A stretch of 7,517 nt of DNA from a virus (lineage: Duplodnaviria > Heunggongvirae > Uroviricota > Caudoviricetes). Shown here in pieces: positions 2,100-5,728 of this stretch. Where the stretch lies: IMG/VR virus record IMGVR_UViG_2778261058_000011, positions 1 to 7,517 of that record; one strand, given 5' to 3'. How positions within the stretch are numbered: position 1 is the first letter of the stretch; every line of letters starts with the position of its first letter. The position numbers and the translations under genes were made by a program. The notes beneath the pieces are model-generated. The model was given only the letters and a program-made list of their open reading frames with translations. It had not been told where the DNA came from and ran no database searches.

Positions 2100-3245
2100 T
2101 TACTTGCCAGCCTGAATTTCCAGAATCTTGATGGCGTTCGAATCCACCACACCACCGCCCAGATATTTCTGGGTATAGATGTTAATGAATCCGGGTTCGC
2201 TGAAATCCGGACGGGTACGCGTACCGGTTTCATGGTCAACGATGAAATAACCGCGCTTAAAGTCACCTACTGCAATCACACCGTCCGGCATAAATTCCAG
2301 ATATTCAACCGGAAGCCCCAGCAGAGAATCAGGATCACCAGCCTGTAAACGATCGCGCCAGATGTAATCACCAGTGGCATTTTTCAGTTTTTGTGCGGAG
2401 GCGGCTGTATTTGAGTTCATCACCCATACAGCTTTTTTGCGGTACTTATTGCGTAACGTAAATTTCAGGTCAATCAGCATGTCGGCGCTGAGACTGCCAG
2501 TCACTTTTTTCGCCTGGAGCGTACCGAAAGGACGGGTTTTGTCATTGTCCGCAGTGCGCGGGAAAGCCAGGAAACCTTTAGCTTTTTTCTCGCCGTCACC
2601 GGAAACCAGATCCGTTTCTTCGGTATCAACGAAAGTGTCGCCAATTTCAGAAGATAACCAGCTCATAATATCGACTTCGGAAAAATCGATAATTTCCTGA
2701 GTGGTTTTCGGGTAAGCGTAGATCGGATACAGGCGGATACTGACTTCATTCAGTTTTGGTGTTGCCGTCTGGTTACGTGCCGCACCTTCTTCGCCGTGTT
2801 CAACGACCGCCCCCCCGGCAGAAACCAGTTGCTTAAATTCATTGCTGTGAATGGTTTTAACGGTACAGATTTTACGCATCACCGATTCATCAGAAAGCTG
2901 ACGCATAATTTCTCTGTTCAGTTCCGGGATAACCGTATAACCACCATCAGCCGGGACACTGCCGGACAGGTTGCGGGTTTCCCCGGTCAGAATGTAAGAG
3001 CGCAGTTCATCTTTGGTGATTTTCTCTTCGACGGAAACACCTGGCTGGTTACGCTCTTCATCCGCAACAGCTTCAAGACGGGAGATTTCTGTGTCGAGGG
3101 AATCGGCTTTTGCACGCAGTTCATCAAACTGTTTGCCCTCGTCATCGGTCAGACTGCGGTTTTCACTGTCGGCTTTTTCCAGCAGGGATCGCATCTGGTT
3201 TTTCAGGGCGGTTTTTTGCTGGCGGAGTTCGATTAATTTCTTCAT
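2100..3245 (-). CDS. major capsid protein (HK97 fold) with N-terminal scaffold-like coiled-coil domain
   Basis: 381 aa from the ATG at 3243-3245. The first ~100 residues are charged and heptad-like (MKKLIELRQQKTALKNQMRSLLEKADSE...), as in the delta domain of HK97-type capsid proteins. The remainder is a ~280-aa body of typical size, and protease, portal and connector genes follow directly. Confidence 0.88.
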   Translation of the reverse strand: MKKLIELRQQKTALKNQMRSLLEKADSENRSLTDDEGKQFDELRAKADSLDTEISRLEAVADEERNQPGVSVEEKITKDELRSYILTGETRNLSGSVPADGGYTVIPELNREIMRQLSDESVMRKICTVKTIHSNEFKQLVSAGGAVVEHGEEGAARNQTATPKLNEVSIRLYPIYAYPKTTQEIIDFSEVDIMSWLSSEIGDTFVDTEETDLVSGDGEKKAKGFLAFPRTADNDKTRPFGTLQAKKVTGSLSADMLIDLKFTLRNKYRKKAVWVMNSNTAASAQKLKNATGDYIWRDRLQAGDPDSLLGLPVEYLEFMPDGVIAVGDFKRGYFIVDHETGTRTRPDFSEPGFINIYTQKYLGGGVVDSNAIKILEIQAGK

Positions 3246-3313
3246 GAAGGTTTTCTCGTATTGGTTAAGATTCAGGACGTGAAACCAACACGGAGGGAGC
3301 GCCGCCCGACACT

Positions 3314-3342
3314 CCCGGCATCTCGCAGATCAACCCGGCATC
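3314..3342. repeat. direct repeat pair (2 x CCCGGCATC) in the capsid-operon leader
   Basis: CCCGGCATC occurs at 3314-3322 and 3334-3342 (plus-strand notation), 20 bp start-to-start, inside the GC-rich untranslated region between the predicted promoter and the capsid ATG. Confidence 0.4.
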
Positions 3343-3394
3343 GCGCAGGGGGTCAGGCGGCATTGTGGCGGCTCACGTCTGAGTGCCACACGCC

Positions 3395-3422
3395 AACATA
3401 TACATAAAAATCAGTATGTAAA
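3395..3422 (-). promoter_or_regulatory. candidate sigma70-type promoter for the head operon
   Basis: On the minus strand: TTTACA (3422-3417), a 16-nt spacer, then TATGTT (3400-3395). This sits in the AT-rich part of the intergenic region, just downstream of the upstream unit's terminator. A TACATA-N8-TATGTA inverted repeat (3401-3420) lies within the spacer. Hexamers are predicted by eye only. Confidence 0.3.
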
Positions 3423-3439
3423 CATCAGCCAGAATCACC

Positions 3440-3466
3440 GAACAACCTGGAACAACCACGAACAAA
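3440..3466 (-). promoter_or_regulatory. three helically phased direct repeats upstream of the candidate head promoter
   Basis: Plus-strand GAACAAC (3440-3446), GAACAAC (3450-3456) and GAACAAA (3460-3466), at exactly 10-bp spacing. On the minus strand they read TTTGTTC / GTTGTTC / GTTGTTC and end 18 bp upstream of the proposed -35. Confidence 0.3.
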
Positions 3467-3481
3467 TAATTTACAAAACCT

Positions 3482-3510
3482 GAAAAAAAGACCTGGAAAA
3501 AATCCAGGCC
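3482..3510 (-). terminator. intrinsic terminator ending the replication/accessory unit
   Basis: On the minus-strand RNA, about 10 nt after the 82-aa ORF stop: GGCCUGGA-UUUUU-UCCAGGUC (8-bp stem, one G-U pair) followed by UUUUUUU. Confidence 0.6.
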
Positions 3511-3519
3511 TTTATCGCT

Positions 3520-3768
3520 TTATTGTTTCACTGGATCCCGCATTCTGCGTCTTATTTTCCACAGATATTCGATCATCGCTTCCACCTGCTCACGGTTGGT
3601 TGCGAAAATTTCCCCGGTCAGTGAGCTGCGCAGAAAATCATGATGATCCACAACAAACAACGCATCGGAAGAAAGCAGACGGCGATATTTTTTTGCTGTC
3701 GTGGTTTCCAGATCATCAAAACCATGAAACTTTTTATGTTGCTGAACTTCTTCAAATGTCACTGGCAT
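3520..3768 (-). CDS. hypothetical protein (82 aa), last gene before the terminator
   Basis: ATG at 3766-3768 with a strong AAGGGGGA RBS 4-10 nt upstream. The start overlaps the stop of the upstream 89-aa ORF by 8 nt. No recognisable motif; basic C-terminus (WKIRRRMRDPVKQ). Confidence 0.55.
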   Translation of the reverse strand: MPVTFEEVQQHKKFHGFDDLETTTAKKYRRLLSSDALFVVDHHDFLRSSLTGEIFATNREQVEAMIEYLWKIRRRMRDPVKQ

Positions 3769-4028
3769 GTATCCCCCTTTGCTGCCCGGCGCTGGCGCTT
3801 GTGCTTCTCATTCAGCGCCATCAGCCGCGTTTCAGCCTCCTGCCGCTCCTGTGGTGTCACTTCCCCACATGGCTGGCCTTTCAGGTCGTAACGTGCACCA
3901 CCAGCCATCAGGGCGCGGTAATAGCGCGGAGACTGCGCATAAGATGCCAGCGTCGCACGTAATGCCCCTGGCCCGAATGCCAGCCCCCTGACGGCGATAT
4001 CCTGCATCAGGTCGTCGAATATCCCCAC
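3759..4028 (-). CDS. hypothetical protein (89 aa, or 82 aa if the ATG at 4005-4007 is used)
   Basis: The track ORF begins at a GTG (4026-4028); the first ATG is at 4005-4007. RBS context is weak for both. It is in register with the flanking genes and coupled to the 82-aa ORF. No recognisable motif. Confidence 0.4.
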   Translation of the reverse strand: MGIFDDLMQDIAVRGLAFGPGALRATLASYAQSPRYYRALMAGGARYDLKGQPCGEVTPQERQEAETRLMALNEKHKRQRRAAKGDTCQ

Positions 4029-4062
4029 CTTCAGCGGCTTCGGTGCTTCCCGGCTGAATAAG

Positions 4063-4293
4063 TCAGTCAGGCCACAACTCAGTAAGGCGGTTAACGCGCC
4101 TGCGGTTTTTTCGCTGCCGTTTGGTCATATGCCGCCACGGTGTCGCCCCTGTGGGCTTCTGCTGTGCGTTCTGATTGCCGGGTATCACTTTATGCGCCGA
4201 TGTGGTTTTATCCTGCTGCTGTGCCGCCTGCGTCGTTTCTGACTGCGTGCCGTAAATGCCTTTCGGTTTTCGGTTAATGGTCAGCTTTGTCAT
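4063..4293 (-). CDS. hypothetical small protein (76 aa), Gln/Thr-rich with basic C-terminal tail
   Basis: ATG at 4291-4293 with a GGGGAAGG RBS 1-8 nt upstream. Low-complexity middle (TQAAQQQDKTTSAHK...NAQQKPTG) and an arginine-rich tail (KRQRKNRRRVNR). Could be a disordered nucleic-acid-binding protein; function unknown. Confidence 0.45.
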   Translation of the reverse strand: MTKLTINRKPKGIYGTQSETTQAAQQQDKTTSAHKVIPGNQNAQQKPTGATPWRHMTKRQRKNRRRVNRLTELWPD

Positions 4294-4329: not shown

Positions 4330-4755
4330 TTAAAACGGTATCCCGTCCCCGTACGGGTCATCGTGCTGGCCTGTCTGTTGTTTTGCCCTGTTCAGTGCGT
4401 CAGTGGCCTGGCCCTGCTGGCCTTTTTTGCCGCCCGGTCGCGCCGTTCTGGCACTGATTACACTGTCTGCGATAACCTGCCAGCCCTGCCGCGTTTCGCC
4501 GTTCTGGCCTGTCCACTGGCTTACCTGCATGTTACCCGCCACGCTCACCAGTTCGCCTTTCTGGTGCCTGGCCAGTGCATCGGCCTGTCTGCCAAACGCC
4601 AGGACGGATAACCACATCGTCGCCGTTCCGTCATCTGCCTGGCTGCACGGCAGGGGAACCGCCATACTCGCCATCGCCATTTGTGTCCCTTTGCTGGTGG
4701 TCTTTAACTGCGGGTCAGCCACCAGCCGCCCGTAAGCTGCTATCTGTGCTGTCAT
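4330..4755 (-). CDS. ssb: single-stranded DNA-binding protein (short SSB)
   Basis: 141 aa. The N-terminal OB-fold region aligns by eye with E. coli SSB (AYGRLVADPQL... and TMWLSVLAFGRQADALARHQKGELVSVAGNMQVSQWTGQNGE). A Gly/Gln-rich linker follows, and the C-terminal DDPYGDGIPF matches the acidic DDDIPF-type SSB tail. The start overlaps the stop of the upstream ORF (ATGA). Confidence 0.8.
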   Translation of the reverse strand: MTAQIAAYGRLVADPQLKTTSKGTQMAMASMAVPLPCSQADDGTATMWLSVLAFGRQADALARHQKGELVSVAGNMQVSQWTGQNGETRQGWQVIADSVISARTARPGGKKGQQGQATDALNRAKQQTGQHDDPYGDGIPF

Positions 4756-5525
4756 GCTGTATGCTCTCCGTTTTTTACTGGCCCTGTCATCAGTGCGCGC
4801 TTAAGCTGCTTGTGTGAGATATTAAACAGGCAGTTCATTCTTCCCGTTCGCTTCACCCGATAACCCGATGCGACCATTGCGGCGATTAATGCGCCGTTTG
4901 TGATGTATGTCGGCTCTGTTGGTTGCCCGTCGCCCTTAGCTCTTCTCTGATTCACACGCTCAACACAATGTTTCAGGCCGTAGGATGTCGGATTTTTTCC
5001 AGGGAATGATGCAATCTTACAGTCGGTTAGGTTGTTCTCCCTTATCCAGCGTAAACAGCTCATCGCCTCCGCCATGAAGGGCGCATAATCAAGCGGGTGC
5101 TCCCATGCCTTATCACGGCTGTACAGTTCAAGTCCGTCGCGGTTAAAAAAAGGGTAAGCGGCAAGAATTACCGTTACTGCGTGTTTAATTTCCACCTCAT
5201 CATTCTGTCGCTCTTTTTCCGTTCCGTGCGGGTAATAATCAGAACCGCCCGGATTGATGCACCGTTTACCGCTGAAAGGCCATTGCTTCGCCATTTCGGG
5301 TGTTGAGTGATTACCGTCGCTCCGTTCTCGTTGTGCCTCTGTCCACTGGCTGGCGTATTCCGTAAAACTCACCGCCTTGCTCTGTCGCATCCAGTGCGCA
5401 ATCATGACCAGCGTTCTGGTAAGGCTCTGTATATCTCCGTGCTTCTCACACTGTCCCGCAAAGGCCTTGAGCGCTTCGCGTTCTTTGTAGTTCATACCCT
5501 GACAGGTCATATTTTCTTTATCCAT
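4752..5525 (-). CDS. hypothetical protein (~257 aa), possibly replication-associated
   Basis: Long ORF (track 4752..5555 from a GTG). I prefer the ATG at 5523-5525, which has GGGGAG 9 nt upstream; ATGs at 5508-5510 and 5493-5495 are also possible. The stop overlaps the ssb start, and the 5' end lies inside the iteron array. No motif I can assign. Function is inferred only from position between ori and ssb. Confidence 0.55.
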   Translation of the reverse strand: MDKENMTCQGMNYKEREALKAFAGQCEKHGDIQSLTRTLVMIAHWMRQSKAVSFTEYASQWTEAQRERSDGNHSTPEMAKQWPFSGKRCINPGGSDYYPHGTEKERQNDEVEIKHAVTVILAAYPFFNRDGLELYSRDKAWEHPLDYAPFMAEAMSCLRWIRENNLTDCKIASFPGKNPTSYGLKHCVERVNQRRAKGDGQPTEPTYITNGALIAAMVASGYRVKRTGRMNCLFNISHKQLKRALMTGPVKNGEHTA

Positions 5526-5728
5526 TCCCCACCACTCCCCACTTTTGCTCCCCACTTTTTAAATTCCCCACTTGCTCCCCATCTCGTTTTTTGGGTGAAT
5601 CTAATGCTTTGTTTTTCATTGTGTTTTTTACTCCCCACTTTTTTGGATGTATACAGGTCGAAAAGTGGGGAATAGTGTTTCAATTTTGTTAAATTCCCCA
5701 TACTCCCCACTTTTACTCCCCACTTTTT
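5525..5728. repeat. iteron array flanking an AT-rich spacer; candidate replication origin
   Basis: Copies of (C/T)TCCCCA(C/T)TTTT at 5535-5546, 5548-5559, 5564-5573, 5575-5582, 5631-5644, 5694-5701, 5703-5714 and 5716-5728, a degenerate copy at 5525-5533, and one inverted copy at 5661-5671 (AAAAGTGGGGA). The two clusters flank an AT-rich stretch (5585-5630). The array begins at the rep stop codon. Confidence 0.6.

What the first reader, a model, noticed from the sequence alone, without database searches (positions are those of the whole stretch)
3520..4293. Three small overlapping ORFs of unknown function at the end of the replication unit
ORFs of 76, 89 and 82 aa follow ssb and precede a strong terminator. 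Two have good RBSs and the last two overlap by 8 nt. None shows a motif I recognise: no HTH signature, no Cys clusters. In phage satellites this position often carries small helper-manipulating or host-manipulating proteins, but that is by analogy only. The 76-aa protein is Gln-rich with an Arg-rich tail, which suggests a disordered nucleic-acid binder.
Basis: inference. Interest (0 to 1): 0.5.

Follow-up and report, generated by a model that had tools for sequence, protein, structure and literature searches.

The report
Broken FinO gene plus small satellite gene
The "three small ORFs" are really two genes of a capsid-forming phage satellite: a ProQ/FinO-family RNA-chaperone gene split in two by a 4-base duplication, and a conserved 82-aa satellite-specific protein of unknown fold and function.

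Summary
The three ORFs and the terminator exist as described, but the trio is not three genes.

- **ORF1 + ORF2 (76 and 89 aa)** are two halves of one ProQ/FinO-family gene.
  - A 4-nt tandem duplication (CTGA|CTGA, window 4063-4070) shifts the frame and creates the TGA that ends "ORF1".
  - Removing it restores a 176-aa protein. Its Pfam ProQ/FinO match then spans the break (86 bits, profile 5-108/109), and ProQ's essential R58/Y70/R80 are conserved.
  - No other copy examined carries the lesion. RefSeq annotates relatives as one intact "ProQ/FINO family protein".
  - The gene is optional cargo of E. coli capsid-forming PICIs (7 of 120 related viral contigs).
- **ORF3 (82 aa)** is a separate, real gene.
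  - It is under purifying selection (dN/dS 0.14-0.27).
  - It was not found in GenBank phage genomes.
  - It lies upstream of the capsid operon in 65 of 92 related satellites across several genera.
  - It folds confidently (pLDDT 93) but matches no solved or viral structure. Its function is unknown.

Verdict: mostly ordinary, a pseudogenised known-family gene plus one orphan. A covarying structured leader RNA just downstream, at the capsid operon, looks more novel.

The parts
3759..4293 (-). ProQ/FinO-family gene (176 aa when repaired), disrupted here and so effectively a pseudogene. It comprises 'ORF1' (4293-4063) and 'ORF2' (mechanical start 4028; the homologous reading frame continues from 4062 to 3759).
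   Evidence: Alignment to the intact 531/543-nt genes in L001 and L002. The repaired translation gives Pfam PF04352 at residues 64-168, profile 5-108/109, E 2.2e-24, 86 bits. PDB sequence hits: ProQ NTD 5nb9 2e-12, FinO 1dvo 2.7e-11, RocC 7rgt. dN/dS 0.23-0.33.
4063..4070 (-). 4-nt tandem duplication CTGA|CTGA (+ strand TCAGTCAG). It causes a +1 frame change and the in-frame premature stop TGA at 4065-4063.
   Evidence: The insertion is absent from the E. coli genomes matching 4016-4115: no record exceeds 95% identity and all 30 listed rows span 96 nt. It is also absent from 8 other full-length copies. The exact 76-aa product is on record only on this contig.
4063..4293 (-). 'ORF1': the N-terminal fragment. 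It holds the disordered Gln/Lys-rich extension, conserved in the clade, plus most of basic helix H1 (KRQRKNRRRVNRLTELWPD).
   Evidence: Clade alignment A6 shows conserved M..LTINRKPKGIYG and RQRKNRRRxNRLxELWP(D/E)LF. In the AF2 model of the 93%-identical intact homologue, residues 1-55 have pLDDT below 50 and H1 is residues 62-77.
3759..4028 (-). 'ORF2': the FinO-domain core without H1. It has no usable RBS before its GTG. It carries the RNA-pocket residues R111, Y123 and R133 (repaired numbering).
   Evidence: Pfam ProQ profile 30-108, 59 bits. RBS context. Residue mapping from the 5nb9 alignment onto ProQ R58/Y70/R80 (PMC10168233).
3520..3768 (-). ORF3: an 82-aa conserved satellite protein (phrog_1957; RefSeq WP_001145404.1 'hypothetical protein'). 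Its start overlaps the FinO stop.
   Evidence: phrog_1957 E 1.6e-36. 49 cluster representatives among 1.84 billion. AF2 pLDDT 93 with alpha-alpha-beta-beta-beta-alpha topology. No structural match. dN/dS 0.14-0.27. Positional conservation upstream of the capsid operon.
3480..3513 (-). Intrinsic terminator ending the early (replication) transcription unit: an 11-bp stem with an A-rich 5' flank and a U-tract.
   Evidence: RNA fold dG -20.4 kcal/mol, z -4.66, 0 of 200 shuffles as stable. Conserved in L001-L003.

Best explanation
The region holds two genes at the 3' end of the early (replication) operon of an Escherichia capsid-forming PICI. They sit between ssb and the terminator that precedes the capsid operon.

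Gene 1 is a ProQ/FinO-family RNA-binding protein. It has a roughly 55-residue disordered basic N-terminal extension, a FinO domain and a short basic tail. It lacks ProQ's Tudor domain. In this contig a 4-nt tandem duplication at the end of helix H1 has split it into a 76-aa N-terminal fragment and an untranslatable domain core, so it is most likely non-functional here.

In intact relatives the protein is expected (inferred from the family) to clamp the base and 3' U-tail of intrinsic-terminator hairpins in its Arg/Tyr/Arg pocket. That would stabilise RNAs or speed antisense pairing. Its RNA targets are unknown. The simplest candidate is the terminator of its own operon. The gene is optional single-gene cargo: many sister satellites lack it.

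Gene 2 (ORF3) is an independent, translationally coupled 82-aa protein of an orphan fold. It is confined to this satellite lineage and is always the last early gene before the cargo slot and the capsid-operon promoter and leader. I favour an early-expressed, non-enzymatic binder that modulates the late stage of the helper-satellite cycle. It would act either on the helper or host (about 0.35) or on the satellite's own capsid-operon control region (about 0.25). This part is inference only.
For: One gene, not two:
- RefSeq relatives annotate a single 176/180-aa 'ProQ/FINO family protein' followed by a hypothetical protein.
- The DNA alignment shows the window-specific CTGA duplication.
- Deleting it gives a 531-nt ORF.
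- The Pfam match then grows from profile 30-108 at 59 bits to 5-108 at 86 bits, spanning the break.
- PDB sequence homologues are ProQ, FinO, NMB1681 and RocC.
- R58/Y70/R80 equivalents are conserved (with PMC10168233).
- The AF2 model places the break at the end of H1.
- Both halves show dN/dS of 0.17-0.43.
- ORF2 lacks an RBS.

Lesion is private:
- No matching E. coli genome carries the insertion.
- All 8 other copies are intact.
- The exact 76-aa product occurs on this contig only.

FinO is optional:
- L003-L005 have ssb followed directly by ORF3.
- Only 7 of 120 related IMG/VR contigs carry it, always intact and overlapping the ORF3 start.

ORF3 is real and satellite-specific.

Terminator.
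Against: - No direct evidence of expression or RNA binding exists for any member of this island clade. No RNA partner was found: Rfam gave no hit in the window, and the antisense terminator-like hairpin inside the gene is not significant (z -1.14).
- The duplication could be an assembly or sequencing error, since this is a single draft contig. In that case the gene is intact in the organism.
- Low-level reinitiation at the GTG (4028) cannot be excluded.
- For ORF3, 27 of 92 sister satellites lack it. It is therefore not essential for the capsid operon, and nothing ties it to a specific partner.
Confidence: 0.85

Rival explanations
1. The 4-nt insertion is an assembly or sequencing artefact of this draft contig. 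In the living strain the FinO-family gene is intact and functional.
For: The allele is a singleton: the exact 76-aa product is on record only on contig NLNZ01000097.1. No matching E. coli genome shows the insertion. A second local oddity lies nearby: codons 17-19 read QSE instead of PQK through what looks like a compensated -1/+1 indel pair around an A-run. That could indicate indel noise. There are no further lesions in the gene.
Against: A clean tandem duplication of a 4-mer is a classic replication-slippage mutation and not a typical short-read error. Independent disrupted alleles of the same gene exist elsewhere: a frameshifted pseudogene in L007, and P0064 on 26 contigs and P0065. The gene is dispensable in sister satellites, so loss is plausible.
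Confidence: 0.25
2. One reading: three independent small proteins (76, 89 and 82 aa) of unknown function, each a separate helper- or host-manipulating factor.
For: Three mechanical ORFs exist. The database gene caller called the 76-aa ORF.
Against: ORF1 and ORF2 are colinear with one intact gene in every relative examined. The Pfam domain spans the junction. ORF2 has no RBS and a GTG start. The exact 89-aa product is not in a 15-billion-protein collection, and the 76-aa product is a singleton.
Confidence: 0.03
3. The frame break is bypassed, by programmed +1 frameshifting at GAC-UGA-C or by reinitiation, so a functional FinO-domain protein is still made.
For: UGA-C is a weak stop context. A +1 shift at GAC UGA C would read ...LWPD-DLFSRE..., adding only one Asp. 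The ORF2 frame is open right after the stop.
Against: P-site tRNA-Asp cannot re-pair in the +1 frame (ACU). No stimulatory SD lies upstream. The site is not conserved, as all relatives have the uninterrupted sequence. Reinitiation at GTG 4028 would delete H1, which is strongly conserved in the clade.
Confidence: 0.04
4. ORF3 is a replication accessory factor of the satellite (for example an ori- or ssDNA-binding helper of the replicase or SSB), not a late-stage modulator.
Against: It occurs with at least three unrelated replicase types (RepA helicase, DNA primase family, DUF927) and with or without SSB. Its linkage is to the capsid-operon lineage. The structural hits are not significant.
Confidence: 0.1

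Closest known systems
FinO (F-like plasmid fertility inhibition protein) and FopA (pCol1B9)
   Same: Encoded on a mobile element. The architecture is a basic or disordered N-terminal extension followed by a FinO domain, with no Tudor domain. The Tyr/Arg pocket residues are conserved. The size is about 170-190 aa (PMC7491321).
   Different: Identity to plasmid FinO is only about 35%, and over the domain alone. The NCBIfam FinO score is 66 against a cutoff of 136. The gene sits in a chromosomal phage satellite between ssb and ORF3, not in a tra or rep-control locus. No cognate antisense RNA such as FinP or Inc was identified. This copy is frameshifted.
ProQ (chromosomal global RNA chaperone, E. 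coli/Salmonella)
   Same: The FinO domain is homologous (5nb9, E 2e-12). R58, Y70 and R80 equivalents are present (PMC10168233). The expected ligand type is an intrinsic-terminator hairpin with a U-tail.
   Different: There is no linker or C-terminal Tudor domain. The NCBIfam ProQ equivalog score is 58.5 against a cutoff of 127. It is accessory island cargo, present in up to 9 places per E. coli genome, rather than a core gene.
Capsid-forming PICIs (prototype EcCIEDL933)
   Same: [quoted passage not shown]
   Different: The two cf-PICI papers held in the library, searched by keyword, mutate only the packaging module. I found no discussion of the genes downstream of ssb or of the operon's promoter and leader.
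phrog_1957 (PHROG family of unknown function)
   Same: ORF3 matches it end to end (E 1.6e-36).
   Different: The family has no annotation. ORF3 has no Pfam, NCBIfam, PADLOC or PDB match and no hit in 50,697 GenBank phage genomes.

Membership tests
ProQ/FinO family (Pfam PF04352) | Domain match above Pfam's gathering score over the whole domain | tested here: met
   Repaired protein: 86 bits against a cutoff of 27, profile 5-108/109. ORF2 alone: 59.1 bits, profile 30-108.
ProQ/FinO family (Pfam PF04352) | Conserved concave-face RNA-binding residues (ProQ R58, Y70, R80) | tested here: met
   R111, Y123 and R133 align with R58, Y70 and R80 in the 5nb9 alignment. Their essentiality comes from PMC10168233. 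The clade alignment A6 supports conservation of these positions: Y and R are invariant, and R58's equivalent is nearly so.
ProQ/FinO family (Pfam PF04352) | FinO-domain fold (helical bundle with a beta-hairpin) | tested here: inconclusive
   The AF2 model of the 93%-identical intact homologue gives H62-77, H94-105, H111-122, H125-133, two short strands and H150-175, with pLDDT about 90. There is sequence homology to solved FinO-domain structures.
ProQ/FinO family (Pfam PF04352) | Intact open reading frame encoding the whole domain | tested here: not met
   The 4-nt duplication at 4063-4070 splits the gene in this window. Relatives are intact.
ProQ/FinO family (Pfam PF04352) | Binds structured RNA or terminator hairpins | not testable with these tools
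   Needs EMSA or RIP/CLIP-seq.
FinO proper (NCBIfam NF010317) | Score above the curated cutoff, and location in a conjugative-plasmid tra region with FinP/traJ | tested here: not met
   66 bits against a cutoff of 136. About 35% identity to plasmid FinO. All E. coli matches are chromosomal.
ProQ proper (NCBIfam NF003434 equivalog) | Score above the cutoff, and a C-terminal Tudor domain | tested here: not met
   58.5 bits against a cutoff of 127. The protein ends about 8 residues after the domain's last helix.
FopA-like FinO-domain proteins | Distinct N-terminal region with two basic stretches plus a C-terminal FinO domain, in the FopA clade | not tested
   The architecture is similar on paper (PMC7491321). 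No FopA sequence was compared.
Capsid-forming PICI (cf-PICI) | Satellite-sized island with int, a regulator, a replication module, a complete HK97-type capsid and packaging module, and no tail genes | tested here: met
   The window carries DUF4222, RepA-type helicase, SSB, capsid, S78 protease and portal. The close relative L001 shows the full island from int to TerL, inserted in yifB, with no tail genes.
phrog_1957 | Full-length profile match | tested here: met
   ORF3 residues 1-81 against profile 1-81/82, E 1.6e-36.

The most novel reading that the evidence does not exclude
ORF3 founds a new, satellite-restricted protein fold. It acts as the early-to-late switch of capsid-forming PICIs by binding the conserved promoter box or the covarying three-hairpin leader RNA of the capsid operon just downstream. 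The FinO-domain protein, inserted immediately upstream and translationally coupled to ORF3, is an RNA chaperone recruited to tune that same RNA, or helper-phage RNAs. This would be the first RNA-chaperone-based control layer described in a phage satellite.
Probability: 0.1. Interest if true: 0.65.

Novelty: new member of a known kind. Interest (0 to 1): 0.3.

Why it matters
As found, it matters little. The report corrects a mis-parse: two of the three ORFs are fragments of a routinely annotated ProQ/FinO-family gene that is broken in this contig.

Some wider points may be useful:
- FinO-domain RNA chaperones are recurrent cargo of E. coli satellites and islands. Related DNA occurs in 1189 of 5426 complete genomes. 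I found no functional study of them in satellites, and their RNA targets there are unknown.
- ORF3 defines a small, satellite-restricted protein family with a confident but unmatched predicted fold, at a fixed position before the capsid operon. That makes it a tractable knockout target in the cf-PICI model system.
- The adjacent capsid-operon leader RNA shows strong covariation and has no Rfam family. It offers a concrete handle on how these satellites time capsid production.

Tried and rejected
- **Rfam:** a scan of the whole window at E<=1 gave no hit.
- **Antisense RNA inside the FinO gene:** the + strand terminator-like hairpin at 4085-4110 folds no better than shuffles (z -1.14). Rejected.
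- **ORF3 sequence searches:** no match in Pfam, NCBIfam, PADLOC, PDB sequences or GenBank phages.
- **DUF7002:** hits in 3 of 38 ORF3-family members at E>=0.002 were judged spurious.
- **The search for related loci with the broad ORF3 alignment** failed for lack of a conserved stretch. It was repeated with a narrower alignment.
- **Programmed +1 frameshift or reinitiation:** considered and rejected on sequence context and lack of conservation.
- **Phase-variable repeat:** rejected, since there are only two copies of a 4-mer and one copy in all relatives.
- **ORF3 as the obligatory regulator of the capsid leader:** weakened, because 27 of 92 leader-bearing satellites lack ORF3.

Full report
**1. 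Context**

All long ORFs of the 7,517-nt window lie on the minus strand. In transcription order they are:
- a DUF4222 protein (7429-7130)
- a RepA-type AAA_25 helicase (7133-5727)
- an unassigned ORF of about 260 aa (5555-4752)
- SSB (4755-4330)
- the three ORFs of the finding
- an HK97-type major capsid protein (3245-2100), an S78 prohead protease and a portal

The window is the whole contig NLNZ01000097.1 of NCBI assembly GCA_002229985.1.

Its closest complete relative is E. coli O177:H21. There the same block sits in an island of about 15 kb inserted in yifB. The island runs integrase, HTH regulator, Icd-like, DUF4222, RepA, SSB, ProQ/FINO, hypothetical, capsid, protease, portal, head closure, connector, HNH, TerS, TerL, and it has no tail genes. 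That is the architecture of a capsid-forming PICI (bioRxiv 10.1101/2022.09.08.507074).

**2. Checking the observation**

The three mechanical ORFs are at the stated coordinates.
- ORF1 and ORF3 are preceded by AGGGG/AGGGGG Shine-Dalgarno sequences 4-5 nt from their ATGs.
- ORF2 starts at a GTG with no usable SD.
- ORF2 and ORF3 overlap by ATGCCAGTGA, which is 10 nt including the stop rather than 8.
- The terminator after ORF3 is real: an 11-bp stem plus U-tract, dG -20.4 kcal/mol, z -4.66, with 0 of 200 shuffles as stable. The consensus scanner missed it.

**3. ORF1 and ORF2 are one gene**

ORF2 alone matches Pfam ProQ/FinO (PF04352, E 4.9e-16), but only from profile position 30. RefSeq annotates just two genes between ssb and the capsid gene in relatives: a 176- or 180-aa "ProQ/FINO family protein" and an 82-aa hypothetical protein.

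A DNA alignment shows that the window differs by a 4-nt tandem duplication, GGCCTGACTGACTTATTC against GGCCTGACTTATTC. It lies at + strand 4063-4070. It shifts the frame and creates the TGA that ends ORF1.

Deleting the four bases gives a 531-nt ORF of 176 aa. Several results support this repaired protein as the real gene product:
- Its Pfam match rises from 59 to 86 bits and covers profile 5-108/109 (residues 64-168), straight across the break.
- PDB sequence searches find the ProQ N-terminal domain (5nb9, 2e-12), FinO (1dvo, 2.7e-11), NMB1681 and RocC.
- In the ProQ alignment, R58, Y70 and R80 correspond to R111, Y123 and R133. Those three residues were shown to be essential for binding all RNAs tested (PMC10168233).
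- A clade alignment shows that the N-terminal part (the "ORF1" part) is itself conserved. The motifs are M..LTINRKPKGIYG and RQRKNRRRxNRLxELWP(D/E)LF, and the second spans the break.
- An AlphaFold model of the 93%-identical intact homologue has a disordered N-terminus (residues 1-55, pLDDT below 50) and a confident FinO domain. The break falls at the C-terminal end of helix H1.
- Against eight intact copies, the repaired gene has dN/dS of 0.23-0.33. Both halves are below 0.45.

**4. How private is the lesion?**

- In the E. coli complete genomes matching window 4016-4115 (130 genomes), no record exceeds 95% identity. The 4-nt gap alone costs 4%, and every listed row spans 96 nt.
- Two RefSeq copies and six IMG/VR copies are intact.
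- The exact 76-aa product is recorded only on this contig. The 89-aa product is not in the 15-billion-protein collection.

So this is either a recent slippage mutation or an assembly error, and I cannot tell which. A nearby compensated frame anomaly (QSE in place of PQK at about 4245-4237) keeps the artefact option alive.

Other disrupted alleles of the same gene also exist: a frameshifted pseudogene in L007, and P0064 on 26 contigs and P0065. Programmed +1 frameshifting or reinitiation is unlikely, given the context and the lack of conservation.

**5. What kind of FinO protein is it?**

- It is neither FinO nor ProQ proper. Its NCBIfam scores are 66 against a cutoff of 136 and 58.5 against 127.
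- Plasmid FinO is about 35% identical, and only over the domain.
- It has no Tudor domain.
- All 298 homologues at E<=1e-5 carry PF04352. Where a source names them, they are called ProQ/FINO family or ProP effector.
- Related DNA occurs in 1189 of 5426 complete E. coli genomes, in up to nine places per genome and always on chromosomes, including non-satellite islands.

Within satellites the gene is optional. In L003-L005, ORF3 follows ssb directly. Only 7 of 120 related IMG/VR contigs carry the gene, always intact and always with its stop overlapping the ORF3 start.

The literature I could search mentions ProQ/FinO-like genes in PICIs and in satellite-plasmids only as annotations (PMC13612085, PMC13230959). 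I found no functional study.

The mechanism is therefore inferred from the family. FinO domains bind the base and U-tail of intrinsic-terminator hairpins, and they stabilise RNAs or accelerate antisense pairing (PMC10168233, PMC12001967, PMC9977716, PMC7491321). No partner RNA was identified. Rfam found nothing, and an antisense hairpin inside the gene is not significant. The operon's own terminator, with an A-rich 5' flank, an 11-bp stem and a U-tract, is the simplest candidate ligand.

**6. ORF3**

The 82-aa ORF is a genuine gene.
- It matches phrog_1957 end to end (E 1.6e-36).
- The exact sequence is seen on about 1,000 contigs.
- dN/dS is 0.14-0.27.
- An exhaustive HMMER scan of 1.84 billion cluster representatives finds only 49 relatives. 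They share the motif Y-R...(V/I)DHH.F(L/I)RS...GE..AT..EQ.D.LIE.L.

It has no Pfam, NCBIfam, PADLOC or PDB-sequence match. It has no tblastn hit in 50,697 GenBank phage genomes.

Its position is what is conserved.
- In Serratia, Pectobacterium, Leclercia, Enterobacter and Kosakonia islands, homologues of 47-51% identity lie after the primase/helicase gene and upstream of capsid-protease-portal. One Erwinia locus, at 43% identity, shows the start of a capsid gene downstream. None of these loci has a detectable FinO gene.
- Among 92 IMG/VR satellite contigs with enough upstream sequence, a profile HMM finds ORF3 on the same strand upstream of the capsid leader in 65. The gap is 150 nt or less in 29 of them. 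In the others, 0.15 to about 2 kb of variable cargo is inserted.
- The remaining 27 contigs carry unrelated or no small ORFs at that position.

ORF3 occurs with three unrelated replicase types and with or without SSB.

Taken together, ORF3 is a frequent but non-essential component of this capsid-forming lineage that was not found in phage genomes. I favour an early-expressed binder that modulates the late helper-satellite stage. This is inference, and replication-accessory and capsid-operon-regulator roles remain open.

**7. Side observation: the capsid-operon leader**

Immediately downstream of the ORF3 terminator lies a non-coding block conserved across genera. On the minus strand it contains:
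- a TTTGTAAAT box
- a promoter-like TTTACA-N16-TATGTT
- a leader at window 3391-3243 that folds unusually well (z -3.74)

I scanned IMG/VR with the first hairpin, leaving four pairing positions free. The scan returned at least 120 contigs. In all of them those positions were either G-C plus A-U (112 contigs) or A-U plus C-G (8 contigs), and never mismatched.

On 69 distinct leaders:
- 97.5% of cells are paired, against 37-45% for slid controls.
- All 10 pairs of helix 2 show compensatory changes.
- 0 of 500 shuffles reach the observed values.
- An invariant GGUUUCACGUC box can pair with the region containing the likely ribosome-binding site (helix 3). It can also pair with GACGUGA in hairpin 1, which is 100% paired with one compensatory change. 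That suggests a conformational switch.

No Rfam family matches. Keyword searches of the cf-PICI papers held found no mention of it. It occurs in satellites with and without FinO or ORF3.

**8. Verdict**

Two of the three ORFs are fragments of a known-family gene that is inactivated here. The third is an orphan satellite protein. Interest is modest (0.3). The adjacent leader RNA is the more novel feature.

Noticed in passing
window 3243-3474 (minus strand), between the ORF3 terminator and the capsid ATG: A conserved control region of the capsid operon. It holds an invariant TTTGTAAAT box, a promoter-like TTTACA-N16-TATGTT (3422-3395), and a structured leader of about 145 nt (3391-3243) with two hairpins and a third helix that includes the likely RBS. 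On 69 distinct leaders, 97.5% of cells pair against 37-45% in slid controls, and all 10 pairs of helix 2 show compensatory changes. A possible alternative pairing links GACGUGA with UCACGUC. There is no Rfam match, and keyword searches of the cf-PICI papers held found no mention of it.
   Followed up: partly
window 5516-5728: About nine copies, in both orientations, of an iteron-like 13-mer ACTCCCCACTTTT / AAAAGTGGGGAAT lie immediately 3' of the RepA-helicase gene. This is probably the satellite's replication origin. It overlaps the N-terminus of the mechanical 267-aa ORF, so that ORF's true start is probably further downstream (gene calls).
   Followed up: no
window 4752-5555 (minus strand): An ORF of 257-267 aa between the origin and ssb has no Pfam, NCBIfam or PADLOC family; it gave only a weak, partial PHROG match of unknown function (phrog_9576, residues 188-257). 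In close relatives this slot holds an unrelated 83-aa hypothetical protein, so it is a second variable cargo position.
   Followed up: no
L004 4455-4961, L005 4445-4951, L012 6373-7861, L009 6251-6610 (relatives); equivalent to window ~3475-3519: The gap between the ORF3 terminator and the capsid-operon promoter box is a cargo insertion hotspot. Relatives carry a 168-aa opposite-strand gene, a 376-aa plus 122-aa gene pair, or a 119-aa membrane-like ORF there. The window has none.
   Followed up: partly
window ~4237-4245 (codons 17-19 of the FinO gene): The window reads QSE where all relatives read PQK. At DNA level this looks like a compensated -1/+1 indel pair around an A-run. It could be a real double mutation, or a hint of indel noise in this draft contig.
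   Followed up: no
L007 4973-5481; proteins P0064, P0065: Independent disruptions of homologous FinO-family genes occur elsewhere: a frameshifted pseudogene beside YfjI/YagK genes, a 131-aa truncated variant on 26 contigs, and a 75-aa truncated variant. FinO-like DNA occurs in up to 9 places per E. coli genome. This suggests frequent gain and loss of these genes.
   Followed up: no
L001 4481-4599 (relative; outside the window): A 119-nt gap lies between a small hypothetical gene downstream of HNH and terS in the packaging module. By analogy with HK97 this is a likely position for the cos site. It was not examined.
   Followed up: no
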